Origin: an uncultured Oscillospiraceae bacterium
GTDB taxonomy: Bacteria > Bacillota > Clostridia > Oscillospirales > Ruminococcaceae
DNA length: 64,000 bases
NCBI GenBank assembly: GCA_900553955.1
Contig: USFO01000001.1
Span: 7,530-71,529, forward strand
Direction: 5' to 3'
Positions 19,591 to 62,655 of the stretch are shown piece by piece. The notes under the pieces were generated by a model. It was not told the DNA's origin. It saw only the letters and a program-made list of their open reading frames with translations, and did not search any database. A program made the translations under genes and the position numbers. Positions within the stretch are counted from its first letter, which is position 1, and each line of letters starts with the position of its first letter.

Positions 19591-19635
19591 TCGGCAAGGG
19601 GCGTTTCCGTATAATAAGCAAAGGAGATACCGCAA

Positions 19636-25891: not shown

Positions 25892-28800
25892 TTATCCGCG
25901 TTTCTTTTTGCCAAGAATTACTGCCGCAGCAGCAAGAACGGCAACAGCTGCAAAGCCGTTCGGTGCGGGTGCGCCGGTTTCGGGGTTGTTTTCGCCCTTG
26001 TTCTTGTCGCCGCCGATGACGATGTGAATGGTCTGGCTGTTATCGGACAGGCGCGGAATTTCCATTCTCTGCTCAAGGTTGCAAACCTTGCAGTAGCGAA
26101 CCTTTTCGCCCGCTTCGGTTCCGGTGGGCTGCTTTACTATAATCCATTCGCCGAACTGATGAGGTACGACGGGGCTTGCTTTACCCTTTTCGATAAGCTC
26201 GCCGCAGGACTTGCAGTAGGTATCGCCGGTGTAGCCGCTCTCGGTGCAGGTTGCGGCTTTGGCGTTTTTAAGCTCGGTTTCGCCTACATGGTTCTTGGGG
26301 TCCTTGGGGGTTACAATTGTTGTGACTTCGTTCTTTGCGTCCTTATCGGAGTAAAGCTTCTTGCAAACAGTGCATTCCCAATACTCGATGCTGCCCTCCG
26401 CAATGCAGGTGGCTGCTTTTGCGGCATGGTGAACGAGCTTGTGACCGAGAGCCGGAGTATCGACGGTCTTAATCTGCTTTTCAAAGCCGTAGATATTGGC
26501 GCCGAATTCTGCGGTGAACTCAACCTTGCCCTTTTCGGTGCAGGTCGCCTCTTTGAGAGTCTTGGAGGTGACTCTTGCATCTTCGGTGTGAACATGGCTG
26601 TTGTCGTTCTCACAGACTACCTTTCCGGTGAGGGTGCTGTTGTTTGCGCTCCACTCGTAGGTGGGCTTGCCCCACTTATGGCCGATTGCCGGGATTTCAA
26701 CGGTCTTTTCGGCCGCTGCGAACTTGGTAAAGGTTGCAACGAACTTGCCCTCGCCTTTTACTTCGCAGGTTGCCGCTTTAACAACGCTGTAAACGGTGTT
26801 TACGGTTTCGGTTTCAGTGTGGCTCGGATCGCGTTTGCAGGTATGCTTTGCGGTAGCTTCGCTGTTATTGCTGTTCCATGTGTACTCGGTTTCGCCCCAG
26901 TCATGACCGAGAACCGCATTTTCAACTACGGCAGTCTGAGTGGTGAAGCCATATTCATTCTCGCCAAACTCTGCGGTGTAGGTAACCTTGCCCGGAGTGG
27001 TGCAGGTTGCGTTCTCGGTTACGGCGGTGGAGTTCACCGTTTCAGTGTGAACATGGTTTTTGTCGTTCTCGCAGACTACCTTTCCGGTGAGAGTGCTGTG
27101 ATCTGCGCTCCACTCATAGGTGGGCTTGCCCCACTTATGACCGGTCGCCGGGATTTCAACAGTCTTTTCGGTCGCCGCGAACTTGGTGAAGGTTGCCACG
27201 AACTTGCCCTCGCCCTTTACTTCGCAGGTAGCTTCTTTAACTACGCTGTAAACAGCGTCAACGGTTTCGGTTTCGGTCTCGTTCGGGTGCTGTGCGCAGG
27301 AATGAGTTGCGGTTACAGTATTGTTGTCAGCGTTCCAAGTATAGGTGGTTTCGCCCCATTCGTGAGCCTGCCATGCAAGGATGGGATAGCCGCTGTTGAT
27401 GTTCTGCTTATCCATGCGGAAGCTTGCGCCAAGAAGGTCAACCATAGCGGAAGCTTTGAGTTCGGATTCGGTCTTTTCGGTGCCGAAGCCGGTGTTAGCT
27501 GCAAGGCTGTGGCAGCCTTTGAGGTAATAGCAGTTTACAACTGCAGATTCCTTAGTGGTGTCGGAAATTGCGCCGCTTCTGGCTGCGCCGGTTACTTTGC
27601 CGACGTTGTAGCAGTTGGTTATCTGCGGACCTTTGCTCTGCTGAGAGCAAGAGTTAGAGATACCGGAAGCAATTCCGTTCTGGGAAGTTGCAGTAATATT
27701 GCCAACATTGTAGCAATCGGTAATGGTTACGCTTTCAAGCAGCGGGTTCGCAAGGATGCCTGCCACTCTGGAGAAGCCGGTTACTTCAACTGCGGTGAAA
27801 CACTGGCTGATTTTGGTATTCTCATAAGAGAACGCTACCAATCCAGCGGTATATTCTTTGCCGCCGGTAGTTGTTACGCTACCCTTTACGCCAAGTTTGG
27901 TGATAGTTGCAGCTCTTACGGTTCCAAAGAGTGCTTGTCTGCCGTTTGCATTGTTAATATAAAGGTCGCTGATAACATGACCGTTTCCGTCGAATTCGCC
28001 GCTAAACTCCTGATAGTCGTCGCCGATAGGAGTCCAGTTGTAACCGCCGAGGGAAATATCGTTCATCAGCTTTACTTTGCTGATTGCGGTGCCTTTGTTT
28101 ACCTCCGCAGCAATCCATGCAAGCTCTGCGCCGGTTCTTACTTCGTAAACGCCGTCAGCATTGGGGGTTACTTCTGTAGTGGTCTTGCCGTCCCAGATGG
28201 AGGCATCGCCCTTAGTAAGGTTTACAGTAACGGTTTTGCCTGCTGCATCCGCATCAGTAAGAGTGAACTTGCCGTGAGCAGCGACATATCCGTTTGCAAC
28301 TACATCATAGCTGTAATCGCCGATGTTTGCGTTATAAGTTCCGTCTTCGTTCGCTGCAACAACAGCGCCGGTGCCGTCATAAAGGGTTACGACTGCGTTT
28401 GCAGGAGTGCAAACGAATGTTACCTTGATGTCAACAATGGATTTTACGGGAATTGTGATCTCCGGGAGCACGTCTCTTACGTGGTTAGTGGAAACAGCGC
28501 TGAAGTTTGCGCCAACGCCGTTATCAGTAAGAATTCTGTGTCCGCCGAGAGGAGAATCGGTGCCCATAACGTTGAATTTTACATTACCGCCGGAAAGGAC
28601 AACATCGCCTGCACTCTTAGCGGTAAAGATGTATCTGTTGGTGCTGATAAAGTCATACTGACCGCCGCTTGCACTCTTAAATTCAGCGTTATCGGAAAGA
28701 GTATAAGAAACTTTGTGTCCCTGACCAAATCCGGGGTTGTAAATACCGGAGAATTTGGAGATAGGCTGATAAAGTCCATGGAATACAAGTTTGATATCGT

Positions 28801-31201: not shown

Positions 31202-31219
31202 TTCTTTTGCCAGACCTCC

Positions 31220-32341
31220 TTAATTTTCAGCCTTGAATTTATCTATAAGACCGTTATAATACTTTATCATATCTATAACGTCAAAAAGATTGACTTTTCC
31301 GTCACCGGTAACGTCTGCGGCTTTCAACTGCTCGTCAGAAAGTGCATTTCCGGTTCCGTTATAATGTCTTATCATCGCGATTATGTCAAACAGGTTTACC
31401 TTACCATCACCTGTCAAATCGCCGTAAACAACATTACCGCTGCCGCCCTCTACAACAACCTTGCAATATGCCGGAGAAGAAACAATCTCTTCCTCATATT
31501 CAACGCCAAGCTCGCCGTAAGCCCAAAGGTAGTAAACGCCGCCTTTGTCAAAAGTGATCTTCGCTTTGCCGTTTGCATCGGTGATTACGGTTTGTGCGCT
31601 TTCCTCATCATAAAGCTCCTTGCCGTAATATATCTTGCTGTTTGCGGAGGGCGTACCTACACCGGTAGTTCCTTGATCTATGTTGCCAAAAATCCTTGTG
31701 TAGCTTATTTCCAAGGGTTCGCCGGCTTTTGCCGCATACTCGTGAGTTATGTTGCCTTTTTCATCAAGGAAATAGTGGAAGCCCGCCGCCGGGTCAGAGT
31801 AAAAGCTCCAGCTTTCATACATGGTAACATCGATAAAATCCCCATCGTTAAGCGCAATTACATCTGCGGTTGCGCCCATGTTCGGACCAAGGGTCGGGTC
31901 CATGGGATAATCGCCGTTTACATAGTAGAGCAGGTTTTCATCATGTCCCCAAAACCCATATTTCATATACATACTATGGGGGCTTCCCTCGATTTGCAGT
32001 TCTCTTGCCGTTCCGTGATAGTATTTATTAAGAACATAAAGATAAAGTTGAAGCACCGTAATATCGTACTTTCCGTTCTTGTCCTCATCGTGATAATACT
32101 CCTGAAGATTATAGTCTTCAAGCTTTATATTGCGAAGCTCGGCAAGGTTAACCGGAACATACGCCATAATCGTGCCTGCGTCAACGCCGTCGCTGACAAC
32201 ATACCTATCATCCTTGCTTATGGATATGTAAGCGGTTCCATTTACCTCCTCATATTCATACTCCTCCGCGGCAAGCACCGTTACAGGAAGCACTCCAACC
32301 GCCATAATTACGGCGAGAATGAGTGCCAATAATTTTTTCAT
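31220..32341 (-). CDS. secreted dockerin-containing protein (N-terminal module of unknown function plus C-terminal type-I dockerin)
   Basis: Signal peptide MKKLLALILAVIMAVGVLPVTVLA. Two Ca-binding dockerin repeats: GDLTGDGKVNLFDIIAMIRHY and ADVTGDGKVNLFDVIDMIKYY. 18-nt spacing to the downstream giant gene. Confidence 0.75.
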   Translation of the reverse strand: MKKLLALILAVIMAVGVLPVTVLAAEEYEYEEVNGTAYISISKDDRYVVSDGVDAGTIMAYVPVNLAELRNIKLEDYNLQEYYHDEDKNGKYDITVLQLYLYVLNKYYHGTARELQIEGSPHSMYMKYGFWGHDENLLYYVNGDYPMDPTLGPNMGATADVIALNDGDFIDVTMYESWSFYSDPAAGFHYFLDEKGNITHEYAAKAGEPLEISYTRIFGNIDQGTTGVGTPSANSKIYYGKELYDEESAQTVITDANGKAKITFDKGGVYYLWAYGELGVEYEEEIVSSPAYCKVVVEGGSGNVVYGDLTGDGKVNLFDIIAMIRHYNGTGNALSDEQLKAADVTGDGKVNLFDVIDMIKYYNGLIDKFKAEN

Positions 32342-32782: not shown

Positions 32783-33988
32783 TTATTCGTTGATTTCGAT
32801 AACAACACCGGAACCGACGGTTCTGCCGCCTTCACGGATAGCGAAGCGGAGACCTTTTTCGATTGCGATAGGCTCGATAAGTTCAACATCCATCTCGACG
32901 TTATCGCCGGGCATGCACATCTCGGTGCCTTCGGGAAGGGTGATAACACCGGTAACGTCAGTGGTTCTGAAGAAGAACTGAGGACGATAGTTGTTGAAGA
33001 AAGGAGTATGACGGCCACCTTCGTCTTTCTTGAGGACGTAAACCTGTCCGCGGAAAGCTTTGTGAGGATGGATGGAGCCGGGTTTGGAAAGAACCTGACC
33101 ACGTTTTACTTCAGTTCTCTGGATGGAACGGAGAAGAGCACCGATGTTGTCGCCTGCCTCGCCATAGTCGAGGATCTTGTGGAACATTTCTACGCCGGTA
33201 ACAACGGTTTTCTTTTTCTCTTCGCTAAGGCCAACGATTTCAACTTCGTCGCCGGTTTTAACCTGACCACGCTCTACACGGCCGGTAACAACAGTGCCAC
33301 GACCGGTGATGGTGAAGATGTCTTCGATAGGCATAAGGAAAGGAAGGTCAGCTTTACGCTCAGGAGTAGGAATGTAAGAGTCAACAGCGTCAAGAAGAGC
33401 CTGGATGGGCTTGTAGCACTCTGCATCAGGATCGTTGCTGGTGTCTTCGAGGCAAGCAAGAGCGGAGCCTGCGATAACAGGGGTTTCGTCGCCGGGATAT
33501 CCGTACTCGGTAAGAAGCTCACGAACTTCCATCTCTACGAGCTCGAGCATTTCGGTATCGCCGTTGAGCTGGTCAACTTTGTTAAGGAATACTACGATGT
33601 AGGGAACACCTACCTGACGGGAAAGAAGGATGTGCTCACGGGTCTGAGGCATAGGACCATCAGCAGCGGAAACTACGAGGATGGTACCATCCATCTGTGC
33701 AGCACCGGTGATCATGTTCTTGATGTAGTCGGCATGTCCGGGGCAGTCAACGTGAGCATAGTGACGGTTTGCAGTCTCATACTCAACGTGTGCGGTGTTA
33801 ATCGTGATACCACGAGCTTTTTCTTCAGGAGCTTTGTCGATTGCGTCATATGCCTCGTACTGTGCCCAACCTTTAAGGCTGAGGTACTTGGTGATGGCAG
33901 CAGTCAGAGTGGTTTTACCATGGTCGATATGGCCGATGGTGCCGATATTAACATGGGGTTTGGTTCTCTCAAAATGTTGTTTTGCCAT
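32783..33988 (-). CDS. tuf: elongation factor Tu
   Basis: [32 protein letters not shown]... Confidence 0.97.
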
Positions 33989-34126
33989 TTAAGATTGTCC
34001 TCCTTACAGTTAAATTCTTTCTTTTTTTATTTCTGGGCTATTACATACTATTTTATACTAAAACAAAAATTTTGCAAGCTGAAAAGCGGCATTATTTTTG
34101 CTTTTGACAAAATATTTTTCCATTGC

Positions 34127-36196
34127 TTATCTATTTTTAATAATCTCTTCAGCAATGGACTTCGGAACTTCAACATAATGGCTGGGTTCCATAACATACT
34201 GTCCGCGTCCTTGGGTTTTGGAACGAAGGTCGCTTGCATAACCGAACATTTCGGAAAGCGGAACATATGCTTTGATTTCTTTTGCGCCGTAGTTATCATC
34301 CATACCGCGGATCTGGCCACGTCTGGAAGAAAGGTCACCCATAACATCGCCCATGTATTCCTCGGGGAATGTTACGGTTACGTTCATGATCGGCTCAAGC
34401 AGAACGGGATCTGCTTTTCTCATAGCTTCCTTGAATGCCATAGAACCGGCAATGGTAAATGCCATTTCGGAAGAGTCGACCTCGTGGTAAGAACCGTCGT
34501 AAAGAGTAACCTTTACGTCAACAACGGGATAACCCGCGAGGACACCGGCATTAAGAGCACCCTGGATACCTTTGTTAACAGGCTCAATGTACTCTTTCGG
34601 GATTGCGCCACCAACAACTGCGTTGATGAACTCGTAGCCCTTGCCGCTTTCGTTCGGTTCGACCTTAATTTTAACATGACCGTACTGACCTTTACCGCCG
34701 GACTGACGGGCATATTTGGTTTCCTGGTCAACAGCCTTTCTGATAGTCTCTTTATAAGCAACCTGAGGTTTACCGACGTTTGCTTCTACCTTAAATTCAC
34801 GAAGAAGACGGTCAACGATGATTTCGAGGTGAAGCTCACCCATACCAGCGATGATGGTCTGTCCGGTTTCTTTATCGGTATAAGCTTTGAAGGTAGGATC
34901 TTCTTCAGCAAGCTTTGCAAGAGCAATAGCCATTTTCTCCTGGCCTGCCTTGGTCTTCGGTTCGATTGCAAGGTCGATAACAGGCTCCGGGAACTCCATT
35001 TTTTCAAGCTCGATAGGAGCTTTGGGGTCGCAAAGGGTATCGCCGGTGGTAGTGTACTTAAGACCTACCGCCGCTGCGATATCGCCGCAGTAGCAGATAT
35101 CAAGATCTTTTCTGTGGTTTGCGTGCATCTGAAGGATGCGGCCTATTCTTTCGTTCTTATCCTTGGTGGAGTTGAGAACGGTGGAACCGGCTTCAACAAT
35201 ACCGGAATAAACTCTGAAGAAGCAGAGTTTTCCGACGAACGGGTCGGCAGCAATCTTGAATGCAAGCGCTGCAAGAGGCTCGTCATCACCGGGCTTGCGT
35301 TCGACTTCTTCTCCGGTGTGGAAATCAACGCCTCTTACAGGCGGGATGTCAAGAGGAGAAGGCATATAGTCAACAATAGCATCGAGCAGCTTTTGAACGC
35401 CTTTGTTGCGGTAAGAAGTGCCGCAGCATACGGGAACGAAATCGTTGTCGATGGTGCCTTTTCTGATGGCGGCTTTGAGTTCGCCAATGGTGAGCTCTTC
35501 GCCGTCAAGGTATTTCATCATAAGCTCTTCGTCAACTTCCGCAGCGGTTTCAACAAGCTTTTCGCGATATTCTTCGCAAAGATCCTTCATATTGTCCGGA
35601 ACGTCAGTAACTTCAATGTTCGTGCCAAGATCGTCAAGATAATAATAAGCTTTCATTTCAAGAAGGTCAACAAGACCTTTGAAATCGGATTCAGCTCCGA
35701 TAGGAAGCTGAATTACCAGCGGAACAGCTTTAAGTCTGGTCTTGACCATATCTACGACATGGAAGAAGTTCGCACCCATGATATCCATCTTGTTGACGTA
35801 AATCATGCGCGGTACTTTATATTTGTTTGCCTGACGCCATACGGTTTCAGACTGGGGTTCTACGCCGCCTTTTGCGCAGAGAACGGTTACAGAACCGTCA
35901 AGCACGCGGAGAGATCTTTCAACCTCAACAGTAAAGTCTACGTGTCCGGGAGTATCGATGATGTTGATACGGTGGCCGTTCCAATATGCGGTGGTTGCGG
36001 CGGAGGTGATGGTAATACCTCTTTCCTGCTCCTGAACCATCCAGTCCATGGTGGCGCTGCCATCGTGAGTTTCACCGATTTTGTAGTTAACACCGGTATA
36101 GTAAAGTATGCGTTCGGTTGTGGTAGTCTTTCCTGCGTCGATGTGAGCCATGATACCGATATTTCGGGTCATCTCAAGTGAAACATCTCTTGCCAT
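34127..36196 (-). CDS. fusA: elongation factor G
   Basis: [35 protein letters not shown]... Confidence 0.97.
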
Positions 36197-37297: not shown

Positions 37298-37544
37298 AGG
37301 TTTCCTCCTTTCTTCAGTTTTTACCGTTTGGGCATGGTTGTCCCCAAAGCAGGAACTACCAATTTCAAATTATAGCATTCTTTCTGCCCGGTGTCAACAA
37401 AATTTTATGTAGGTATTTCACAAAAATGAGGCTCCGGATTAGTGCAAAATGCCTAAACAAAGCGCATATTTTATCGACTCATGTTCATACAGCCGATGAA
37501 ATATCGCAACATTGCAAAAAATTTTATGCAAAAATGCAAGGAGG

Positions 37545-37585
37545 CATAAAATACCGGCTTTTCGCTTCCGAAAAGCCGGTATTAC
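37545..37585 (-). terminator. intrinsic terminator downstream of rpoC
   Basis: Perfect stem ataccggcttttcg / cgaaaagccggtat. Confidence 0.6.
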
Positions 37586-37610
37586 TTTAAATAAACGAAT
37601 AATAAAGATA

Positions 37611-40600
37611 TTATTCTTTAGCAGCGGAAGCTTCCTCCATGGCGCGCTCATACTCGCTGCCGTTGTCAAGGGGCTTTATTTCCGGCATGGTTGCGGAATA
37701 GGTTGCATTGTTATAGCACTCCATGCCGGTACCTGCGGGAACAAGCTTACCGATGATGACATTCTCTTTAAGTCCGAGCAGGCGGTCGGTTTTGCCCTTA
37801 ATCGCCGCTTCGGTAAGAACACGGGTGGTTTCCTGGAAGGATGCGGCGGACATAAAGCTTTCTGTCGCAAGAGACGCTTTGGTGATACCAAGGAGCATCG
37901 GGATGTAGGTCGCTTCGCGCAGGCCGGTTTCTCCCTCTGCAATACGTCTTCTGATTTCTCTGTTTTCCGCGAACAGCTCGCCCTTTTCGACGGTCATACC
38001 GGAAAGCAGATGAGTATCGCCCTGGTCGTCGACCTTTACCTTCTTCATCATCTGGCGAACGATAACCTCGATGTGCTTATCGTTGATGTCAACACCTTGG
38101 AGGCGGTAAACCTTCTGAACCTCGGCGATAAGGTAGTCCTGAACGGCAAGAGCGCCGTTGATGTCGAGATACTTATGCGGGTTGACGGAGCCTTCGGTGA
38201 GGAGGGAGCCTGCCTTTACCCTGTCGCCTTCCTTTACGCAGGGATGGCTGCCGTAGGTGATAAGATATTTGCGTTCGTCGCCGGTTTCCTTATTGTAAAT
38301 AACGATATGGCGGTTCTTCTTGATTTCCTCAATACGAACCTCGCCGTCGATTTCGGAGATAATGGCTTCGCGCTTGGGATTTCTTGCCTCAAACAGCTCC
38401 TCAACACGGGGAAGACCCTGTGTAATATCCTCTGCGGAAGCGATACCGCCGGTATGGAAGGTACGCATGGTAAGCTGAGTACCGGGTTCGCCTATGGACT
38501 GCGCCGCGATTACGCCGACGGCCTCGCCGACGGAAACAGGCTTGCCGTTGGCAAGGTTCATGCCGTAGCACTTGGCGCAAACGCCCTGTTTCGCTTCGCA
38601 GTTAAGAATGGTTCTGATTTTGACGGAGGTGATGCCGGCCTCTTTGACGCGCTTCGCATCCACATCGTCCATCATCTTGTCTTTGCTTACGATAATCTCG
38701 CCGGTGGTCGGATCCACAATGTCTTCGACGGCGTAACGTCCCACAAGACGCTCGGTCATCGGCTCGATCATTTCTCCGCCCTCTTTGATGTCGCAAACCA
38801 CAATGCCCTCGTGAGTTCCGCAGTCCTGCTCACGGATGATAACATCCTGAGAAACGTCAACAAGACGTCTGGTAAGGTAACCGGAGTCTGCGGTACGAAG
38901 TGCGGTATCCGCCAAGCCCTTACGAGCGCCACGGCTGGATATGAAGTATTCGAGTATGTTAAGACCCTCACGATAGTTTGCACGAATAGGAATTTCTATG
39001 GCTTTACCGGAGGTGTTGGCGATAAGTCCGCGCATACCCGCAAGCTGACGAATCTGGTTCATGGAGCCACGAGCACCGGAGTCCGCCATCATGAAGATTG
39101 GGTTATATTTGTCAAGGTTGTCTTTCAGTGCGTCGGCAACCTTATCGGTGGTTTCGTTCCAGGTGGCGATTACCTTCTTGTAGCGTTCCTCGTTGGACAT
39201 AAGACCGCGGCGGTACTGCTTGGTGATGGTATCGACCTTTTTTTCTGCTTCCTGAAGAAGCTCATATTTCTTCGGAGGAATTACGGCGTCGCTTACGGAG
39301 ACGGTGATTGCGCTCTTGGTGGAATATTTGAAGCCCTGAGCCTTAACTCTGTCGAGCACCTGACCGGTGATTGCGGTTCCGTGCTTCTTTACGCAGCGGT
39401 CGATAATCTGACCGAGCTGCTTTTTGCCCACAAGGAAGTCGATTTCAAGGTCGAATTCGTGCTCGGGGTCGGTTCTGTCAACATAGCCGAGATCCTGAGG
39501 AATGGGCATATTGAAAATGGTTTTACCCACGGTGGTGCGAATGATTTTGCTGCGCTTGGTTCCGTCCTCGTCGGTTTTCTCCATACGAATGAATATCGGA
39601 GCGTGAAGACCCACAACGCCTGCGGAATATGCCATAATGGCCTCGTTTACATCGCGGAACACCTTGCCCTCGCCCTCTTCGTAGCCGGGCTTTTCGAGGG
39701 TAAGATAGTAGGAGCCGAGCACCATGTCCTGAGTAGGAACGGTAACGGGCTTGCCGTCGGAGGGCTTGAGCAGGTTGTTCGCGGCAAGCATAAGGAATCT
39801 TGCCTCTGCCTGAGCCTCGGTGGAAAGCGGAACATGAACTGCCATCTGGTCGCCGTCGAAGTCCGCGTTGTATGCGGTACAGGCAAGAGGATGCAGCTTC
39901 AGCGCTCTGCCCTCTACCAATACGGGTTCAAAAGCCTGAATACCGAGTCTGTGAAGCGTAGGAGCACGGTTGAGCATAACCGGGTGGTCTTTAATGACGA
40001 TTTCGAGAGCGTCCCAAACCTCCGGGCGTGCTCTTTCCACCATTTTTCTTGCGTTCTTGATGTTGGTGGCTGCGCCCACGTCCACAAGGCGCTTCATTAC
40101 GAAGGGCTTGAAGAGCTCCAGCGCCATTTCCTTAGGAAGACCGCACTGGCTCATTTTAAGCTCCGGTCCTACGACGATAACGGAACGGCCGGAGTAGTCG
40201 ACGCGCTTACCGAGAAGGTTCTGACGGAAACGGCCCTGTTTCCCCTTGAGCATATCGGAAAGGGATTTGAGCGGTCTGTTGTTGGGGCCGGTGACGGGTC
40301 TGCCGCGGCGGCCGTTGTCAATAAGTGCGTCCACCGCTTCCTGGAGCATACGCTTTTCGTTGCGGACAATGATGTCCGGCGCGCCCAGCTCAAGAAGTCT
40401 GGTAAGGCGGTTATTTCTGTTGATAACTCGTCTGTAAAGGTCGTTGAGGTCGGAGGTGGCAAATCTGCCGCCGTCGAGCTGCACCATAGGACGAATATCC
40501 GGAGGAATTACCGGCACAACATCGAGAATCATCCATTCGGGGCGGTTGCCGGAGAGACGGAACGCCTCTGCAACCTCAAGGCGCTTGAGCAGGCGCACAC

Positions 40601-41204
40601 GCTTCTGTCCGGAAGCGTTTTCAAGCTCCTCATGAAGCTCCTGAGAGAGCTTTTCAAGGTCAATATCCTTGAGAAGAAGCTGGATCGCCTCCGCACCCAT
40701 GCCGGCCTGGAAGTCCTCGCCGTATTTTTCGCGCATCTCTCTGTATTCCTTTTCGGAAAGGAGCTGTTTGTTCTCCAAAGAGGTGCTGCCCTTGTCGGTT
40801 ACAATGTAGCTTGCGAAGTAGAGAACCTTTTCCAGCAGTCTGGGGCTCATATCAAGGATAAGTCCCATTCTGGAGGGGGTTCCTTTGAAGTACCAGATAT
40901 GGGATACCGGCGCCGCAAGCTTGATGTGACCCATACGCTCGCGTCTTACCTTTGCTCTGGTGACTTCAACGCCGCAGCGCTCGCAGATCTTGCCCTTGAA
41001 GCGCAGGCGTTTGTATTTTCCGCAGTAGCACTCCCAGTCCTTGGTCGGTCCAAAGATTCTTTCGCAGAAAAGGCCGTCGCGCTCGGGCTTGAGTGTTCTG
41101 TAGTTTATCGTTTCGGGTTTCTTTACTTCACCGTAGGACCATTCAAGGATCTTTTCCGGTGAAGCAAGGCCGATTTTGATAGAATCAAAGGTGTTGAATT
41201 CCAT
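37611..41204 (-). CDS. rpoC: DNA-directed RNA polymerase subunit beta'
   Basis: Zn-finger [23 protein letters not shown] and catalytic [12 protein letters not shown]. Confidence 0.97.
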
Positions 41205-53140: not shown

Positions 53141-53165
53141 TTTTTTAGTTTAATGGGTATGACAA

Positions 53166-53196
53166 CTCCCCCTGCCGAACGGCAGGGGGAGTTTTT
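53166..53196 (+). terminator. intrinsic terminator (hairpin ctccccctgcc gaac ggcagggggag + ttttt)
   Basis: Perfect 11-bp stem; a near-identical copy recurs at 53919. Confidence 0.75.
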
Positions 53197-53315
53197 GTGC
53201 GCTATTGTCAAACTTTTTTTACAAATATAGTGCAAATATTTCAATGATATGCTATAATGGAAATGCGGCAAAGCTTTTGCCGAACTTCAAAAGCTGAATT
53301 AAGGGAGGTATATTC

Positions 53316-53912
53316 ATGAAAAAGATATTTGCACTGCTTCTTATGCTCGCTATACTATGCGCCTGCAACATGCCCGAAAAGCCCGCCGTCAGTTCGGAAA
53401 GCGAACCGAGGACTTCCGCTTCGGAAAGTTCGGAGAGCGAAACCGAAACTTCACAGGAGCCCGAAAAAACGTGGCTTGACGACGACGACCCTCTCTATTA
53501 CGAAATGAAAGCAAAAGATATTTACGAATCCGGAAAGCACAGCCTGTACATTTCACGCGTGGAACAGCGGATACAAAGCTATCGCGACGGAACTTTTACC
53601 GAAATGGAAAATCACCACGCGCCCTACCCGGATGATTTTCCCGACCCGAAGAACCTTCCCGAAGCGACAGCGGAAAACACTTTCCTTTGCTGGAGGAATA
53701 ACGTGCCACTAAGTGAAAGTTCTTATCAGGTCGGGTGTGTTGAATATGTCTATGCCATAGACGAAGATCATATGGTCATCCTCGAACCCGTCGCACTCGA
53801 ATTGATGGATGGCACAATAGCCTATACCTTTGCCGATACCGAATATATAGATGCGGATGTAAAGGAATGGTTTGAAACAAAGTACGACGGCATTTACGAA
53901 AATTATCAGTAA
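53316..53912 (+). CDS. lipoprotein, hypothetical (acidic, Ser/Glu-rich linker)
   Basis: Lipobox LAILCAC; no family recognised. Confidence 0.5.
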   Translation: MKKIFALLLMLAILCACNMPEKPAVSSESEPRTSASESSESETETSQEPEKTWLDDDDPLYYEMKAKDIYESGKHSLYISRVEQRIQSYRDGTFTEMENHHAPYPDDFPDPKNLPEATAENTFLCWRNNVPLSESSYQVGCVEYVYAIDEDHMVILEPVALELMDGTIAYTFADTEYIDADVKEWFETKYDGIYENYQ

Positions 53913-53918
53913 AAAGTT

Positions 53919-53947
53919 ACCCCCTGCCAAACGGCAGGGGGAGTTGT
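53919..53947. terminator. second copy of the cccctgcc-aac-ggcagggg hairpin, convergent terminator for the lipoprotein and Fic genes
   Basis: ccccctgccaaacggcagggggag is 1 nt different from the 53166 copy. Confidence 0.7.
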
Positions 53948-53951
53948 TGCG

Positions 53952-57677: not shown

Positions 57678-57986
57678 TCAGCCTTCAACAGCCTCGATAG
57701 TGAGCTTGGTGTAGGGCTGACGATGACCGAGAGCGCGTTTGCTGCCTTTTTTGGAGCGATAGGTGAAAACATTGATTTTCTTGCCTTTGCCGGTCTTTAC
57801 AACCTTTGCGGTAACTTTTGCGCCTTCAACATAGGGTGCGCCTACCTTGAGGCTTTCGCCGCCGAGAACAAGAACCTTATCAAGAGTTACTACTTCGCCT
57901 TCGTTGGCTTCGAGTTTTTCAACGTAAATAGTATCGTTAGCTTCTACGCGATACTGTTTGCCGCCGGTTTCGATTACTGCGTACAT
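57678..57986 (-). CDS. rplU: 50S ribosomal protein L21
   Basis: [25 protein letters not shown]... Confidence 0.9.
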
Positions 57987-58099
57987 GATATTCCTTCTTT
58001 TTTATAGACTCGCTGCGTGATGGCGGCGCCAAAAAGGCGCACTTATAGAGCCAATGGCAAGCGGCAAGAAAGATTATAACATTGATTTTGTCCTTTGTC

Positions 58100-58260
58100 A
58101 ACCTCCATTATGCGAAAAAACCGCTTTTTTATGCGGAATTTTCGCGGCAAAGCTCGGCACCTCTGTATAAGGGGAGCCGGCGTGCCTTCGGCGCGACTGA
58201 GGAGTTGTATCCGCAACCGGTTACAGCGTTTATACAAAACAATCTCATTTGTGAACTTTT
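58100..58260 (-). ncRNA. candidate ribosomal protein L21 leader / structured 5'UTR
   Basis: GC-rich structured segment upstream of rplU, including hairpin cggcacctctgtataaggggagccg. Assigned by analogy with Firmicutes L21 leaders and not verified. Confidence 0.25.
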
Positions 58261-58534
58261 TGTAAACGCTTGAAAATATGTGTAACATTTTGCGGATTTT
58301 TTCGTTTATATAAGTGAAGGCTTTTTGAAACGGCAGACTTCGCGGAAACAAAGCGATAGTCGTTGTGCTCAAAAAGATTCTTTTAATTATATCTTTACGC
58401 CATTTGTAGCATTTTTGAAATATATATCAATGAAGAGCCTTAACTTTGTTTATTATGTCAATTGTAGTATTTAAGAAAGTAATGTATAATATTTGCAAAG
58501 ATGTATCTGTATATCGTGCAACAGGAGGGTACTT

Positions 58535-59374
58535 ATGAAAAAATTTGCTATAAGCTTTTCCGCTTTTATATGCGCGGTTCTCATGCTCTCCGCAACTGCG
58601 TTTGCAGCGGAGAAAATAACCGCCTATGACGGCATTAAATCAAGCTATTATGTCGACAAATCCGCTTCGTTCGGAAAAGAAATCGACATAACCGATTCCT
58701 ACGAAACCCTCGGCGTGCAGGCAAAAGCCAAAACCGACGAGCTGATTCCGATTTACTATACCGATACCGAATTGACAGAGAAACTTCAAAATATGTTAGC
58801 GGAAATTTCACGCGGAAAAAGCCTTGAAAGCTTTCTCATTCCAAAAAATCAGTATTTTGCTTTTGCCTATAACGGCAACAAAGCGGTGGGCTACTGCATA
58901 CTCTCGGACAAGCTCGAAATGCAGGAAGTCGGTGAACTTAACGAATTCAACAACCCGGCGCTCCGTCTGAACAACAAAGCCACGAAAGCACTCAGCAGCA
59001 TTGATTTGAACAACGCTTCCGCAAAATACTGCATAATTTCCGGCTTTGCCGTTGGAACGCTGATTTACGACAGCAACAGCGAATTTTTTATTCCGTCCGT
59101 CGAATGCCTTGAAACTGCAAATGTTCTTACGGTCGGCTCCGTTTACCGCGTTTCCGATTTATACACAATAAGCGCGCAAATGCCCGAAAAAGCACCGAAC
59201 TCTCTTGACGAAAACGGCAACCCATACACCGGCGCCGAATATTACAGCAACATTTCCGCCAACAAACCGTCCCATATCGAAGCCGTTCCGGTTATGTTCC
59301 TTTCGGCTTCTGTAATTTTCGCCGTAGCAGCGGGATTTCAAATAAGAAAAGTTAAAGACAAACATTCCAAATAA
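58535..59374 (+). CDS. secreted protein with C-terminal membrane anchor, hypothetical
   Basis: RBS aggaggg. Signal peptide ...ATAFAAEK. C-terminal TM VMFLSASVIFAVAAGF plus basic tail. Promoter TTGTAG-17-TATAAT at 58462-58490. Confidence 0.45.
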   Translation: MKKFAISFSAFICAVLMLSATAFAAEKITAYDGIKSSYYVDKSASFGKEIDITDSYETLGVQAKAKTDELIPIYYTDTELTEKLQNMLAEISRGKSLESFLIPKNQYFAFAYNGNKAVGYCILSDKLEMQEVGELNEFNNPALRLNNKATKALSSIDLNNASAKYCIISGFAVGTLIYDSNSEFFIPSVECLETANVLTVGSVYRVSDLYTISAQMPEKAPNSLDENGNPYTGAEYYSNISANKPSHIEAVPVMFLSASVIFAVAAGFQIRKVKDKHSK

Positions 59375-59380
59375 ACAAAA

Positions 59381-59482
59381 GAGCGCCCCCGCAGTTAAAC
59401 CTGCGGGGGCTTTTGTAAACTACATTGGTAGTCATTTTGCACAAAAACACGGTACATATTTTGGTGATTATGCTGATTGAAA
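59381..59482 (+). repeat. 102-bp direct repeat unit A (terminator hairpin cccccgcagttaaacctgcggggg plus promoter -35 TTGAAA at its 3' edge)
   Basis: Near-identical to 60239-60340 (1 mismatch). Each copy is followed by its own TATAAT 16-17 nt after TTGAAA. Confidence 0.85.
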
Positions 59483-59555
59483 TAATTACAGTTGTAGTAT
59501 ATAATTTTATTACAGTATATGATAACCGCAAAAAGCACTTTGCTCGAAAGGATGT

Positions 59556-60230
59556 GTGACAAAAATGAAAAAAGCAGCTCTGTTCCTCGTTGCAATTTTA
59601 CTTCTATGCTCCTGCCAAGCGGGCGTTCCCGCTTCAAGCAATTCAAGCAGCCTTTCCGAAAGCACAAGCATTTCCGATGATTCAAGCGGTCTGCCCGAAA
59701 GCAAATCTTTCGGCGAAGCGGAGAAACAGCCCAACGTCCAAACGCCGGGCGGCGAATCATTAGAAATGACTGACGAAGACAAAAAGTATCAGGACGACTG
59801 CGAGCGCGCCACAGCACTGGAAGCTTATCTGAGGGACAACCTCTCCGGCGACGATTACGGCGGGCTGTACCTTTTCAAGGGCGACAAGGTTGAGCTAACC
59901 GTGCTGGCAATAAACCGCGGCAACATTGATAAAGTTATCGGCGAATACGCCGGCAAACCGTACAAGGTGAATATTCTCGAGGGCGACTACTGCCCGCACA
60001 GCAAGCTTGAAGCCTTTGCCGAGAAAGTTGAGGCGCTGAACAGCCCCTCCGAGCGGAAAATAATCGCCATTCTTTCCGAGGAATACAGCTTTGTTGCCGT
60101 AAATGTCCACAAAGAAGCCCTTCCCGAATTTGAAAATTCGATAAACAAGATTGCGGCGGAGCTTTCCATGCCGGAGGGCTCGTGGAAGCTTGTTATTCTC
60201 GACACGAAAGGTGAAAATCCCAATACATAA
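59556..60230 (+). CDS. lipoprotein, hypothetical
   Basis: Lipobox LLLCSC with a Ser-rich linker; bracketed by the direct repeats. Confidence 0.5.
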   Translation: MTKMKKAALFLVAILLLCSCQAGVPASSNSSSLSESTSISDDSSGLPESKSFGEAEKQPNVQTPGGESLEMTDEDKKYQDDCERATALEAYLRDNLSGDDYGGLYLFKGDKVELTVLAINRGNIDKVIGEYAGKPYKVNILEGDYCPHSKLEAFAEKVEALNSPSERKIIAILSEEYSFVAVNVHKEALPEFENSINKIAAELSMPEGSWKLVILDTKGENPNT

Positions 60231-60238
60231 TGTATTTA

Positions 60239-60340
60239 GAGCGCCCCCGCAGTTAAACCTGCGGGGGCTTTTGTAAACTACATTGGTAGCCATTTTGCAC
60301 AAAAACACGGTACATATTTTGGTGATTATGCTGATTGAAA
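60239..60340 (+). repeat. direct repeat unit B (second copy of terminator plus promoter -35 cassette)
   Basis: See 59381-59482. Confidence 0.85.
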
Positions 60341-60587
60341 AGTCTTGTAATTGTTGTATAATGATTTTAGAACAATACTTACATAAATGTAAACAGAAAG
60401 CAAGTATATTGCTTTAGAATAGTAAGCGCAGCCAAAACACGACACTTGTAAAATAGATTTGAGGTGAGTCCCATGGGCAATGTGTCGCCATGCGACGGCA
60501 ATTAAGAAGTGTAAATTTTTATATTGAATGCTCGTGCCCAACATAGCATAAACAACATACTTTGCTCGGAGGGATTGGTTTATTCTC

Positions 60588-61646
60588 ATGTGCTCATTCA
60601 CAACAAATAAAACACAAAGATATGCCAAGCTTTTCATCTTGGTACTTTCAATACTGCTTTTATGCTGCTGTTCACCGCAAAAGTCCTCTTACGAAATATG
60701 CCTTTCCTCTATTGAAGAAAGCAGTCCTGAAATAGAAGGAGCTATTTCAGCCGTGGAAAATTATATTGAGAATTTTCAGTATCGCGCTGACAGCAATCTT
60801 ATAAGCAGCCACCATATAGTGAAAATAGCGGTTAGTTTGCCGGCTACAAATTTCCACATAAATAACATTCTGGAGACGCCATGTTCAGGAGCTTATTCAA
60901 ACGATTATAGTGCGCTTTATAATTCCGACTATTTGGAAAGAAACCTTGTCGCTGTTTGCACAGTGCAAAAGCTTGATTTCACAGATGAAAATTCAAGACT
61001 CATTTTTGAGAGAAGCGGCTGCTTTACTTACGGTGAAAATCAGATTGATTTTACATATGTTGTGCTTCGTGACGAAAGTGGCAAATGGCAGGTTATAAAT
61101 AAATTTTGTGTTCCATTCAACACTTATGACAACTGTACTGTCACCAAGCTCAGGCAAGTTTTTGCTGATTCACATGAAGAAATTGCGGCATATAATTCCA
61201 AGCCGCCACAAACGAGTGAAATCGATTCAAAAGGCAGCTTTGCCAAATCATGTCTAGATGATGTTCAAAAAAATTTTATTGACCGGTACGAGCATTATCC
61301 CGAAGTTAAAAGCTGTAAAATACTATCTTGTGAAATTGATTCATCATTCACCGAAAGTTGGATTAAGCAGTATTGGAACAGTGAATTATATTGTAATTAT
61401 ATCCTTGCAAAGCGTTTTCTCGCCGTTAGGACTGTTTTCGAGCTTACCTTTGATCCCGACTGGGATGGTAAATCCGGCTTTGGCTATTTATATGGACCGG
61501 ACGTGCAAATAACTTTACCCGTAGAAACGTTTGAATCTACAAATATTGCCGTATACGATCCCGATGGCCGCTGGTATTTCCGACAGAGCGACTCCGATTG
61601 GGTACTTGCTGACGGATTCCCTGTTTCAGAGTACTTCCCCGAATAG
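60588..61646 (+). CDS. lipoprotein, hypothetical (Cys-rich, 352 aa)
   Basis: Lipobox LLLCCC; no family recognised. Confidence 0.5.
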   Translation: MCSFTTNKTQRYAKLFILVLSILLLCCCSPQKSSYEICLSSIEESSPEIEGAISAVENYIENFQYRADSNLISSHHIVKIAVSLPATNFHINNILETPCSGAYSNDYSALYNSDYLERNLVAVCTVQKLDFTDENSRLIFERSGCFTYGENQIDFTYVVLRDESGKWQVINKFCVPFNTYDNCTVTKLRQVFADSHEEIAAYNSKPPQTSEIDSKGSFAKSCLDDVQKNFIDRYEHYPEVKSCKILSCEIDSSFTESWIKQYWNSELYCNYILAKRFLAVRTVFELTFDPDWDGKSGFGYLYGPDVQITLPVETFESTNIAVYDPDGRWYFRQSDSDWVLADGFPVSEYFPE

Positions 61647-61673
61647 CATCAAAAACGCATTGTCAACTTTTCC

Positions 61674-61706
61674 TGCGCCCCCGCAGTTAAACCTGCGGGG
61701 GTGTTT
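61674..61706 (+). terminator. third copy of the cccccgcagttaaacctgcggggg hairpin terminator (hairpin only)
   Basis: gcgcccccgcagttaaacctgcgggggtgttttttg. Confidence 0.75.
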
Positions 61707-61872
61707 TTTGCGCATTTTGGTACAACAAAGCTAGCCCCCTGTCGGCGGGGAAACTAAAAAACGCTATTGCCGCCTATCGAGAGCCGGACATTCTCTCAAC
61801 AGGCGGAGAAGTTTTGTACAAGCGATATGCCGCATTTCTGATACACCCTCAGCCACTCAAAAGGCGACCGCT

Positions 61873-62655
61873 TCACAAAATCAGAGCCATAGCCCTCTCA
61901 ATTTCGCTGTCGTCATACCCTGCCAGCGACTTTGGCACGCTTCGCACCTCGTCAACAGAAAATCCCTTTGGTTTCGGAATTATGATTTCCGCATGGGTTG
62001 CTTTTTTGTCAAAGCTTTTTATTCTTATTCTGCCGCCGCAATCCTGCACATAATACCGCGCCAGTGTAAGCCCAAGCCCAAGCGGCTGCTTGTTGCCGGA
62101 AGCGATTCTTCCGCTGAAAAACGGTTCCATACAGCGGCTCAATGTTTCTTTGTCCATGCCATCGCCGTTATCGTGAACTGAAATTTTTACGGTGCGGGCG
62201 GTTTCCTCCACGCGCACTTCAATTTTTCCGCCAAACTTTATATGCTCAATGGAGTTAAGCACCATCGCCGAAAGTGCCTGCCGGATTTCGCTGCAGTCTA
62301 TCAGCACGTAAATCGGGGATTCCGGAACAGTATAGGCAAATTGCACATTCTTTTTGCTGAGGATACGGGATGTTGTATCGCAGAGGGGGCGCAGTTCTTC
62401 GCATATATCGTAAAGTCCCTTCTCCGCCTTGTATTCGCCGGAAATTATCTTGCAATAGTCACCGAATTCCTGCTGAACATGCAAAATGTAATAAGAATCC
62501 GCCACCACCTGCTCTGCGGCCGCCTTATCGTTTTTTACCGCATTTACAATGTTCGCATAGGCAGCGTCCTTTATTTTTTCGCACACTTTTTCGCTTAAAT
62601 ACGAAATTGTTTTTGTGCTTATGGTTTTTGTCGGGCGAAGTCTTTTTTCCGTCAT
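61873..62655 (-). CDS. cytoplasmic GHKL/HATPase_c-domain protein (orphan histidine-kinase-like ATPase)
   Basis: C-terminal N/G1/G2-box-like segments (LNSIEH, HDNGDGMD, GLGLGLTLAR). No TM, and no clear H-box or partner regulator. Confidence 0.55.
   Translation of the reverse strand: MTEKRLRPTKTISTKTISYLSEKVCEKIKDAAYANIVNAVKNDKAAAEQVVADSYYILHVQQEFGDYCKIISGEYKAEKGLYDICEELRPLCDTTSRILSKKNVQFAYTVPESPIYVLIDCSEIRQALSAMVLNSIEHIKFGGKIEVRVEETARTVKISVHDNGDGMDKETLSRCMEPFFSGRIASGNKQPLGLGLTLARYYVQDCGGRIRIKSFDKKATHAEIIIPKPKGFSVDEVRSVPKSLAGYDDSEIERAMALIL

What the first reader, a model, noticed from the sequence alone, without database searches (positions are those of the whole stretch)
58440..61706. Array of secreted or lipoprotein genes, each bracketed by the same terminator-plus-promoter cassette
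Three unrelated exported proteins (58535-59374, 59556-60230, 60588-61646) are separated by near-identical ~102-bp repeats (59381-59482, 60239-60340, and the hairpin alone at 61674-61700). Each repeat holds the hairpin terminator cccccgcagttaaacctgcggggg and ends exactly at a -35 TTGAAA. An individual TATAAT follows each copy 16-17 nt later, and a TTGTAGTAT-like motif recurs near the promoters. This looks like a modular, cassette-like organisation in which genes are swapped between fixed expression signals. Integron or gene-cassette-like shuffling, or phase-variable replacement, is possible.
Basis: seen in the sequence. Interest (0 to 1): 0.65.

Follow-up and report, generated by a model that had tools for sequence, protein, structure and literature searches.

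The report
Strain-variable secreted-protein gene array with recombining joints
Between a ribosomal-protein operon and a kinase-like gene, an uncultured human-gut bacterium carries a row of self-contained secreted-protein genes whose repeated terminator-plus-promoter joints let strains gain, lose and reorder them, apparently by ordinary recombination and not by an integron-like machine.

Summary
Two 103-nt copies (59380-59482, 60238-60340; 102/103 identical) and a third copy of their 27-nt GC-rich hairpin (61675-61701) separate three unrelated exported-protein genes. Each long copy ends at TTGAAA, with TATAAT 17 or 16 nt further on.

Comparison with about 45 metagenome contigs shows the rplU-to-HATPase interval is hypervariable within one species, with at least 9 arrangements:
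- g1|g2|g3 (the window)
- g2|g1|g3
- g1|g3
- g1|g3|g2
- protease|g2|g3
- further variants with fusion genes and extra genes

Sister lineages carry one unit or none.

Breakpoints fall in the hairpin, the repeat tail, the promoter core and the signal-peptide codons. The promoter-bearing g2 unit sits after g1 in the window. In contig L018 it sits after g3, with both junctions inside the hairpin.

The repeat is not dispersed. All three collection hits to its tail lie at this locus. No recombinase was found among the window ORFs and annotated flank genes examined.

The repeat is the ancestral locus's own terminator joined to its own upstream promoter region, reiterated as units were added.

Best reading: homologous recombination at these joints shuffles moron-like units. 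The integron, phase-variation and "fixed signals" parts are not.

The parts
57678..57986 (-). rplU (L21), first gene of the rplU-prp-rpmA-obg operon. This is the conserved left anchor of the variable interval.
   Evidence: ORF. Pfam Ribosomal_L21p in the table for source contig L001. The identical protein is found in all compared strains.
58073..58101 (-). rplU promoter-like site, TTGACA-17-TATAAT with an upstream TG. It marks the end of the conserved left flank.
   Evidence: 12 of 12 consensus match.
58380..58444 (+). Degenerate copy of the repeat tail (the ancestral upstream promoter region), lying upstream of g1.
   Evidence: Alignments. A homologous stretch lies upstream of the single g1 gene in sister lineage L030, matching repeat positions 35-100 at 75%.
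58445..58534 (+). p1, the g1-specific promoter core and 5' UTR: TTGTAG 58462-58467, TATAAT 58485-58490, GGAGGG ribosome-binding site.
   Evidence: Read from the sequence. It moves with g1 in every arrangement. Promoter function is inferred. The -35 matches consensus at only 3 of 6.
58535..59374 (+). g1: 279-aa exported protein with a signal peptide and a C-terminal membrane anchor. It is the oldest resident of the locus.
   Evidence: Homologues at 62-86% identity are the only, or one of two, genes between rplU and the HATPase gene in sister lineages.
59380..59482 (+). Joint repeat copy 1: hairpin 59385-59410 (27-nt shared core 59383-59409), then the repeat tail to the -35 TTGAAA at 59477-59482.
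59483..59564 (+). p2, the g2-specific promoter core (TATAAT 59500-59505) and 5' UTR.
   Evidence: Present only where g2 has the MKKAALF-type N-terminus. Absent from g2-first strains.
59565..60230 (+). g2: 221-aa lipoprotein. Together with p2 and one joint it forms an 858-nt unit that is absent, or placed elsewhere, in other strains.
   Evidence: L020 lacks it. L018 has it after g3.
60238..60340 (+). Joint repeat copy 2: hairpin 60243-60268, tail, -35 TTGAAA at 60335-60340.
60341..60587 (+). p3, the g3-specific promoter core (TATAAT 60357-60362) with a 225-nt leader. The leader holds a conserved GAGGTGAGTCCCATG element that opens a mini-ORF (60473-60505, MGNVSPCDGN).
   Evidence: The same leader element lies upstream of first-position genes in other strains.
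60588..61646 (+). g3: 352-aa lipoprotein-like protein, 39.5% GC against 49.7% for the window, restricted to this species.
   Evidence: The only remote relative is the C-terminal domain of a BlaR1-type M56/M23 protein.
61675..61720 (+). Third hairpin (stem 61675-61704) followed by a degenerate, internally deleted repeat tail. This is the original end of the array.
   Evidence: The same hairpin plus tail follows g1 directly in sister lineage L037.
61873..62655 (-). HATPase_c (histidine-kinase-like) gene, the conserved right anchor.
   Evidence: Pfam HATPase_c E 1.5e-17. It lies directly next to rplU in L023, which has no array.

Best explanation
The interval between rplU and the HATPase gene is a strain-variable array of self-contained transcription units. 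Each unit has its own sigma-70-type promoter core, ribosome-binding site, export signal, coding sequence and GC-rich hairpin.

The 103-nt repeat is the joint between two units. It consists of the hairpin that closes one unit and the roughly 73-nt upstream promoter region, up to the -35, of the next unit. Both halves are the native terminator and native upstream promoter region of an ancestral single-unit locus. They were reiterated as units were added.

These reiterated joints provide homology for general (RecA-type) recombination. The promoter cores, the leader and the signal-peptide codons do so to a lesser extent. The events envisaged are loop-out deletion, re-insertion of looped-out circles, unequal crossing-over, gene conversion between copies, and exchange with DNA from other strains. 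The result is strain-to-strain differences in which exported proteins are encoded and in what order, with each unit staying transcriptionally autonomous wherever it lands.

Shown here: the repeats, the predicted signals, the variation between strains, the positions of the breakpoints, locus-restriction of the repeat within the available collections, and its origin from ancestral signals.

Inferred: the recombination pathway, promoter and terminator activity, and selection for surface or secreted-protein diversity.
For: 1. Variation between strains. At least nine arrangements occur between the same anchors in contigs about 95-99% identical in the flanks:
- g1|g2|g3: the window, L016, L022, L025, L027.
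- g2|g1|g3: L003-L014, L019, L021.
- 410-aa fusion|g1|g3: L024, and L045 plus 9 similar places.
- Single examples of g1|g3 (L020), 232 aa|g1|g2|g3 (L017), 417 aa|g1|g3|g2 (L018), protease|g2|g1|g3 (L015), protease|g2|g3 (L029), and g3|249 aa|further gene (L028).

2. Breakpoints at the repeats.
- L020 is g1-joint-p3-g3, without the 858-nt unit.
- L018 reads g3-linker + hairpin + tail + p2 + g2 + g2-linker + hairpin + original end-tail. Both junctions therefore lie inside the 27-nt hairpin.
- The g1-first state differs from the g2-first state by a deletion between two copies of TTTGTTTATTAYGYCAATTGTAGT.
- g1 and g2 each occur with two alternative 5' modules that switch inside the signal peptide.

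3. Recombination signatures.
- Joint copies are mosaics of two sequence types.
- The two copies within a g1|g2|g3 strain are 0.90-0.99 identical. Orthologous copies between strains average 0.87-0.92.
- Four-gamete minimum recombination events are 15, 16 and 24 for g1, g2 and g3 among 11-13 strains.

4. Ancestry. In L037-L044 the locus is tail-like + p3-like promoter + leader | 232 aa | g1 | hairpin + end-tail. In L030 a tail-like sequence precedes a lone g1. L023 has rplU next to the HATPase gene with nothing between.

5. Not dispersed. There is no further copy in the 64-kb window. The tail 24-mer gives 3 hits in the metagenome collection, all at this locus, and none in viral contigs. The hairpin gives one unrelated hit among 185,579 species representatives.

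6. No recombinase. No integrase, transposase or recombinase domain was found in 30 window ORFs or in the annotated flanks.

7. Foreign composition. GC is 44.8% for g1, 50.8% for g2 and 39.5% for g3, against 49.7% for the window.
Against: - A 27-nt crossover target (L018) is near the lower limit for RecA-type recombination, so that event would be rare.
- How the first hairpin-tail joint arose, and how unrelated coding sequences came to sit between copies of the locus's own signals, is not explained by homologous recombination alone.
- A second variable islet in the same window has a different hairpin duplicated on both sides of an added lipoprotein gene. This hints at a more general hairpin-linked insertion process.
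- Several arrangements (L015, L017, L018, L020, L028, L029) rest on one metagenome contig each.
- No read-level or experimental evidence is available for promoters, terminators or ongoing rearrangement.
- One allelic type of the hairpin lacks a T-run, so it may not terminate efficiently.
- The whole genome of the organism was not available, so copies outside the sampled sequence cannot be excluded.
Confidence: 0.6

Rival explanations
1. Dedicated site- or structure-specific recombination. The hairpin acts as an att-like site recognised by a recombinase encoded elsewhere in the genome. Circular promoter-bearing cassettes are excised and integrated at hairpins, as in an integron but without a linked integrase.
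For: - In L018 both junctions of the g2 unit lie exactly within the 27-nt hairpin. The unit arrived with a tail of the sequence type seen in g1|g2|g3 strains, not the type of L018's own g1-g3 joint.
- Every unit ends in the hairpin family, and the hairpin is kept in all 37 copies examined despite sequence change, including one fully compensatory pair.
- A second islet shows a different hairpin duplicated around an added gene.
Against: - No recombinase gene was found among the 64-kb window ORFs and flank genes examined.
- Breakpoints are not confined to the hairpin. They also fall in the tail, the promoter core, the leader and the signal-peptide codons.
- Joint copies are mosaics, as expected from homology-driven exchange.
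- The two islets use different hairpin sequences, which a sequence-specific enzyme would not share.
- The GTTAAAC in the loop resembles the integron GTTRRRY core. It sits in the loop and is not conserved among strains.
Confidence: 0.15
2. Replication template switching (copy-choice) at stable hairpins. Stalled nascent strands re-anneal at another copy of the hairpin or joint and so delete, duplicate or transpose the intervening unit without a recombinase.
For: - The hairpins are very stable (-15 to -29 kcal/mol) and are retained in all copies.
- The crossover in L018 lies within 27 nt.
- Resident hairpins are duplicated at two independent islets.
Against: - It does not explain arrival of foreign coding sequences of different GC content.
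- It does not explain the abundant allelic mosaicism inside the genes.
- With sequence data alone it cannot be told apart from RecA-type events.
Confidence: 0.1
3. The three genes are ancient tandem paralogues that diverged beyond recognition. Their regulatory flanks stayed similar through purifying selection.
For: All intergenic regions of the array descend from one sequence.
Against: - The proteins show no similarity. Their architectures differ (membrane-anchored against lipoprotein; 279, 221 and 352 aa). GC differs by 11 points, while the flanking repeat is 99% identical.
- g3 has a separate remote relative in a BlaR1-type protein.
- Sister lineages have g1 alone.
Confidence: 0.03
4. The repeat is a dispersed REP- or MITE-like element that happens to sit at these terminators.
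For: It is short, non-coding, contains a hairpin, and is repeated.
Against: - Copies occur only at this locus in the window.
- All collection hits to the tail are at this locus. There are none in viral contigs.
- There are no terminal inverted repeats or target duplications.
- A different, genuinely REP-like hairpin exists in the window and is unrelated.
Confidence: 0.02
5. Assembly artefact: the repeats misled metagenome assemblers into false gene orders.
For: - The repeats are 103 nt long.
- Several arrangements are seen in one contig only.
Against: - The window's order recurs in independent samples with sequence differences: L001 plus 3 similar places, L016, L022, L025 and L027.
- The g2-first and fusion-first orders each recur in 10 or more contigs.
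- The unusual junctions in L018 span only a 27-nt shared core in a contig whose k141 name suggests a 141-nt k-mer assembly. A single k-mer would then cover unique sequence on both sides.
Confidence: 0.02

Closest known systems
Neisseria minimal mobile elements and intergenic repeat (NIME/dRS3) arrays (Saunders & Snyder 2002, as described in PMC1797815)
   Same: - A site between two conserved genes holds alternative whole-gene contents in different strains.
- Intergenic repeats next to surface-protein genes are proposed substrates for recombination with incoming DNA.
- Repeat arrays differ in number between strains.
   Different: - The repeat here is locus-specific rather than a genome-wide family.
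- It is made of the locus's own terminator and upstream promoter region.
- Units are reordered within the site as well as replaced.
- The organism is a gut Firmicutes-type bacterium whose competence for DNA uptake is unknown.
Phage morons (PMC3594210)
   Same: - Each unit is an added gene with its own promoter and terminator.
- The GC content of g1 and g3 differs from the surroundings.
- The products are small exported or membrane proteins.
   Different: - The units are not in a prophage. The flanks are rplU-obg and gap, and there are no PHROG matches.
- The units are chained in an array and share reiterated joints.
Integron gene-cassette arrays
   Same: - Unidirectional array of unrelated single-gene units.
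- Each unit ends in a hairpin-forming repeat.
- Content and order differ between strains.
- At least one unit behaves as if inserted at the hairpin.
   Different: - No intI and no attI.
- The hairpins are perfect GC stems, mostly with a T-run, rather than attC sites.
- Every unit has its own promoter.
- Breakpoints are spread over several homologous segments.
Mycoplasma variable lipoprotein loci (vsp, vpma, vsa; from general knowledge, not tested here)
   Same: - Clusters of lipoprotein genes with shared 5' regions.
- Recombination swaps expression modules and coding bodies.
- In this array, breakpoints lie inside the signal-peptide coding sequence.
   Different: - Those loci use an adjacent site-specific recombinase, inversions and a single active promoter, and their genes are paralogous.
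- Here all genes point the same way, each has a promoter, the genes are unrelated, and no recombinase is nearby.
Correia/REP-type intergenic elements that carry promoters or terminators (PMC1797815)
   Same: Short non-coding repeats that supply transcription signals and promote rearrangement.
   Different: - Those are dispersed in tens to hundreds of copies with terminal inverted repeats.
- This repeat is confined to one locus and has no such ends.

Membership tests
Integron | An adjacent intI tyrosine-recombinase gene with an attI site | tested here: not met
   No Phage_integrase or other recombinase domain in 30 window ORFs or in the annotated genes of the source contig around the array.
Integron | attC sites (imperfect palindromes with paired R and L boxes) at the 3' end of each cassette | tested here: not met
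   The hairpins are 10-12-bp perfect GC stems with a 5-6-nt loop, mostly followed by a T-run. GTTAAAC lies in the loop and varies among strains.
Integron | Promoterless cassettes expressed from a common promoter | tested here: not met
   Near-consensus -35/-10 pairs precede g2 and g3, and a TATAAT precedes g1. Activity was not measured.
Integron | Cassette content and order differ between strains | tested here: met
   At least nine arrangements.
REP/MITE-type dispersed repeat | Many copies at unrelated loci in the genome | tested here: not met
   Only the three local copies in 64 kb. All 3 collection hits to the tail are at this locus. A complete genome was not available.
REP/MITE-type dispersed repeat | Terminal inverted repeats and target-site duplication | tested here: not met
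   No inverted repeat other than the hairpin itself.
Minimal mobile element (concept) | Conserved flanking genes with alternative gene content between them in different strains | tested here: met
   rplU and the HATPase gene are conserved anchors. Contents differ, and the site is empty in L023.
Minimal mobile element (concept) | Exchange by homologous recombination of the flanks after DNA uptake | not testable with these tools
   Only indirect support: minimum recombination events of 15-24 per gene.
Phage moron | Independent unit with its own promoter and terminator, and deviant GC content | tested here: met
   (predicted signals only).
Phage moron | Located within a phage or prophage genome | tested here: not met
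   The flanks are housekeeping genes. No PHROG family matches the cassette proteins. No viral-contig match to the repeat.
Invertible or shufflon-type phase-variable locus | Inverted repeats flanking the segments, inverted variants, and a linked invertase | tested here: not met
   All units are co-oriented in every contig. No invertase was found.

The most novel reading that the evidence does not exclude
In this bacterium, new promoter-bearing genes may be inserted at intrinsic-terminator hairpins by a structure-directed process that duplicates the resident hairpin. That would make terminators act as general docking sites for moron-like cassettes.

The rplU array, with three or more hairpin copies, and the yebC-fic islet, with a different hairpin on both sides of an added lipoprotein gene, would be two products of the same mechanism.
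Probability: 0.15. Interest if true: 0.8.

Novelty: new variant of a known kind. Interest (0 to 1): 0.5.

Why it matters
It is a compact natural example of plug-and-play gene organisation. Each exported-protein gene is an insulated unit, and the duplicated terminator-promoter joint doubles as the recombination handle.

It accounts for strain-level differences in secreted and surface proteins in a gut bacterium whose contigs come largely from Hadza and Nepali samples. These proteins include a trypsin-like protease and possibly a cysteine-protease-like protein (a motif seen by eye, with no family match).

It shows that the repeat arose from the locus's own signals and not from a mobile element.

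It gives a concrete system in which to test whether 27-103-nt joints suffice for cassette movement.

It also warns that such loci can be collapsed or mis-ordered in metagenome-assembled genomes.

Tried and rejected
- Rfam: no family at gathering threshold in the whole window. Below threshold there were only hairpin-driven hits: Thr_leader, Spot_42, snR93 and IsrM.
- Family searches on cassette proteins: Pfam, NCBIfam, PHROGs and PADLOC gave nothing except Trypsin_2 for the 402-aa gene of L015/L029.
- Structure prediction: AlphaFold2 models of g2 (pLDDT 44.5) and g1 (pLDDT 45.4) were too poor, so no fold search was run.
- g3 homologues: one 90% cluster. The full HMMER scan found only a 33%-identical C-terminal domain of an M56/M23 protein.
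- Hairpin scan of species-representative genomes: one unrelated hit, in Desulfocucumis. The organism is therefore not among the representatives, or its hairpins differ there.
- Viral-contig scans: 0 hits.
- Naming the organism: cluster look-ups returned no source names.
- Integron-core idea: GTTAAAC in the loop matches GTTRRRY. Rejected because of its position and lack of conservation.
- Strand bias of hairpin stability, as a test for RNA-level selection: none, 14 against 14 of 37 copies.
- The 18007-20376(-), 33008-36178(+) and 37512-41159(+) ORFs had no Pfam hits. They are probably shadow frames of genes on the other strand.


Full report
**The observation**

The described features are present. 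A 103-nt direct repeat lies at 59380-59482 and 60238-60340, with 102 of 103 bases identical and a spacing of 858 nt. The hairpin part recurs at 61675-61706. The 24-nt hairpin core occurs three times in the window, against none in 100 shuffles.

Each long copy ends in TTGAAA, followed after 17 or 16 nt by TATAAT, matching 11 of 12 consensus positions. The three hairpins are picked up as terminator-like sites. They fold at about -24 to -25 kcal/mol.

The three ORFs encode one signal-peptide protein with a C-terminal anchor (g1) and two lipoprotein-like proteins (g2, g3). They have no mutual similarity and very different GC content: 44.8, 50.8 and 39.5%, against 49.7% for the window. None matches a Pfam or NCBIfam family.

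The similarity between the two long copies continues more weakly into the promoters, giving 140 nt at 90%. The sequence upstream of g1 and the sequence after the third hairpin are degenerate copies of the same element.

**Setting**

The array lies between the rplU-prp-rpmA-obg operon on the minus strand and a HATPase_c gene followed by gap. The window is 100% identical over the 5,001 nt compared to an ENA human-gut metagenome scaffold, L001. The organism carries no source name in the collections. It is not represented, at least with this hairpin, among 185,579 species-representative genomes. Record names of related contigs point to Hadza and Nepali gut samples.

**Comparison across strains**

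Homologues of g2, the exact L21 protein, g1 homologues and a DNA scan for the repeat tail brought in about 45 contigs. I cut out the rplU-to-HATPase interval from 14 of them and mapped fourteen sequence modules onto each.

| Order between rplU and HATPase | Contigs |
|---|---|
| g1, g2, g3 | window, L016, L022, L025, L027 |
| g2, g1, g3 | more than ten contigs |
| 410-aa fusion, g1, g3 | more than ten contigs |
| g1, g3 | L020 |
| 232 aa, g1, g2, g3 | L017 |
| 417-aa fusion, g1, g3, g2 | L018 |
| trypsin-like 402 aa, g2, g1, g3 | L015 |
| 402 aa, g2, g3 | L029 |
| g3 followed by a 249-aa lipoprotein and a further secreted-protein gene | L028 |

Flanks and shared genes are about 95-99% identical, so these are strains of one species.

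**Where the breakpoints are**

Every gene keeps its own short linker after the stop codon. It also keeps its own promoter core, 5' UTR and the first half of its signal peptide. What is shared between units is the hairpin and the roughly 73-nt tail up to the -35.

- L020 has g1, one joint, then p3-g3. It lacks the 858-nt unit made of p2, g2 and one joint.
- L018 reads g3-linker, hairpin, tail, p2, g2, g2-linker, hairpin, original end-tail. The same promoter-bearing g2 unit therefore sits after g3 there, and both junctions fall within the 27-nt GCGCCCCCGCAGTTAAACCTGCGGGGG.
- The g1-first state differs from the g2-first state by loss of everything between two copies of a 24-nt promoter segment.
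- The g2-first state itself retains the last ~37 codons of the 402-aa protease gene. It therefore derives from the L015-type order by deletion.
- g2 occurs with two N-termini: MKKAALF... with p2, and MYIKIVL... when it is first or follows the protease. Hybrids of the two exist.
- g1 likewise has two N-termini.
- The conserved C-terminal domain of g2 is fused to another lipoprotein domain in the 410/417-aa genes. That domain occurs on its own in L028.

**Signatures of homologous exchange**

- The joint copies come in at least two sequence types, and several copies are mosaics of them.
- In g1|g2|g3 strains the two joints of one genome are 0.90-0.99 identical. Orthologous joints of different strains average 0.87-0.92, so the copies evolve in concert.
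- Minimum recombination events by the four-gamete test are 15 for g1, 16 for g2 and 24 for g3 among 11-13 strains.
- The hairpin is kept in all 37 copies (-15 to -29 kcal/mol). One variant shows a fully compensatory change and many show G-U pairs. One allelic type extends the stem and loses the T-run.

**Origin of the repeat**

In a sister lineage (g1 84% identical; L037-L044) the interval holds one operon. A tail-like sequence, a p3-like promoter and the leader come first, then a 232-aa gene and g1, then the hairpin with the same end-tail as in the window. In a more distant lineage (g1 62%; L030, GCA_900768105.1) a tail-like sequence and a p1-like promoter precede a lone g1. In L023, rplU directly abuts the HATPase gene.

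So the hairpin and the tail are the native terminator and native upstream promoter region of the locus. The 103-nt repeat is the joint formed when a unit ending in the hairpin is followed by a unit starting with the tail. g1 is the oldest resident. g3 is species-restricted with low GC, and it and the other genes are additions.

**Is the repeat dispersed, and is a recombinase nearby?**

No other copy exists in the 64 kb. A degenerate 24-mer of the tail found three stretches in the metagenome collection, all at this locus, and none in viral contigs. The hairpin found nothing in viral contigs.

Pfam scans of 30 window ORFs and the precomputed annotations of the source contig show only housekeeping, transport and metabolic genes. 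No integrase, transposase or invertase appears.

The second refutation condition, a common REP-like element, is therefore also not met. The integron reading lacks its defining enzyme and site type.

**Mechanism**

The best-supported account is general homologous recombination acting on reiterated joints. Other short shared segments also take part. The events would be:
- loop-out of a unit between two joints;
- re-insertion of such a circle at any hairpin or joint;
- unequal crossing-over;
- gene conversion between copies;
- replacement by DNA from other strains.

Each unit stays expressed wherever it lands, because it carries its own promoter core and ends in a hairpin.

Weak points:
- The 27-nt crossover in L018 is short for RecA.
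- The first joint, and the way foreign coding sequences came to lie between copies of local signals, are unexplained.
- A second islet hints at something more general. There the lipoprotein gene at 53316-53912 is flanked by two copies of CCCCCTGCCRAACGGCAGGGGG in every strain that has the gene. The hairpin is single in L024, which lacks the gene.

I therefore keep a hairpin-directed process as a minority possibility. It could be either a recombinase acting in trans or template switching.

**What the proteins are**

No function could be assigned to g1, g2 or g3.
- Structure models were of low confidence.
- g3 aligns at 33% identity to the extracellular C-terminal ~300 residues of a 1,244-aa BlaR1-type M56/M23 protein, so it may be a ligand-binding domain.
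- Other units encode a trypsin-like peptidase.
- Another encodes a 232-aa protein with an NWCWAT motif that suggests a papain-like cysteine peptidase. This was seen by eye only.
- g2 overlaps the stop of the protease gene when it follows it.

The common theme is exported proteins. Selection for diversity is inferred and was not tested.

**Comparison with known systems**

- As a concept it matches the minimal mobile element and repeat-array ideas developed for Neisseria (PMC1797815).
- Each unit has the anatomy of a phage moron (PMC3594210), but it sits in a chromosome and in an array.
- It resembles an integron only in outline.

It is best called a new variant of a known kind: a repeat-mediated variable islet whose repeat is the locus's own terminator-promoter joint.

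**Verdict**

The cassette-shuffling interpretation is partly supported. The integron, phase-variation and fixed-signal parts are not. Interest is moderate.

Noticed in passing
window 53162-53949: A second small islet follows the same pattern. The lipoprotein gene 53316-53912, which has its own TGCTATAAT promoter, is flanked by two copies of the hairpin CCCCCTGCCRAACGGCAGGGGG (53168-53197 and 53920-53949), between yebC and fic. Strains with the gene have two copies. L024, which lacks it, has one. In some strains the two copies differ in the loop; in the window they are nearly alike.
   Followed up: partly
window 60461-60530; also L004 5854-5904, L015 1312-1379, L028 915-935: A conserved leader element, TTGAGGTGAGTCCMATGRRC, lies upstream of g3 and of first-position genes. 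It opens a mini-ORF whose length and sequence vary (MGNVSPCDGN, MGNVSPYDIKRR, MG-stop, MS-stop). In L015 and L037 the mini-ORF runs into the start codon of the downstream gene. It may be a translational control element. There is no Rfam match.
   Followed up: partly
window 4190-4232 and 58153-58179: A different, REP-like GC-rich hairpin, CTCGGCTCCCCTGTGTAAGGGGAGCCG, occurs at two distant sites in the window. Similar hairpins occur in the variable stretch between rplU and the array in other strains and in sister lineages. That stretch carries indels of about 145 nt among strains.
   Followed up: partly
window 20325-20613: The last ~100 nt of a plus-strand gene (ending ...PALPDD) are repeated 188 nt downstream at 93% identity. 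A terminator-like hairpin lies between the two copies. This looks like a footprint of an insertion or duplication at a gene end.
   Followed up: no
window 25895-32341 (minus strand): A 1,769-aa ORF with no Pfam match contains internal 300-nt and 80-nt repeats (26582-27340, 30472-30662). It sits next to a 373-aa protein with a type I dockerin domain. Together they suggest a cellulosome- or amylosome-type surface system and a Ruminococcus-like organism.
   Followed up: no
L018 array positions 669-1922; L024 620-1852; L028 979-1728: The conserved C-terminal ~150 residues of g2 are fused to an unrelated ~250-aa lipoprotein domain in 410/417-aa genes. That domain exists as a separate gene, with a paralogue next to it, in L028. 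This is domain shuffling within the same array.
   Followed up: partly
L036 5720-7451: A g1 homologue (63% identity, 302 aa) lies in a quite different neighbourhood: a SipL/LysM protein, a metallophosphoesterase and PAP2. The g1 family is therefore not tied to the rplU locus.
   Followed up: no
window 61873-62655 and other strains: The last 100 nt of the HATPase gene fall into two allele classes: 99-100% identical to the window in L015, L016, L022 and L025, and 90-93% in the other strains. The gene was called as only 176 aa in L018.
   Followed up: no
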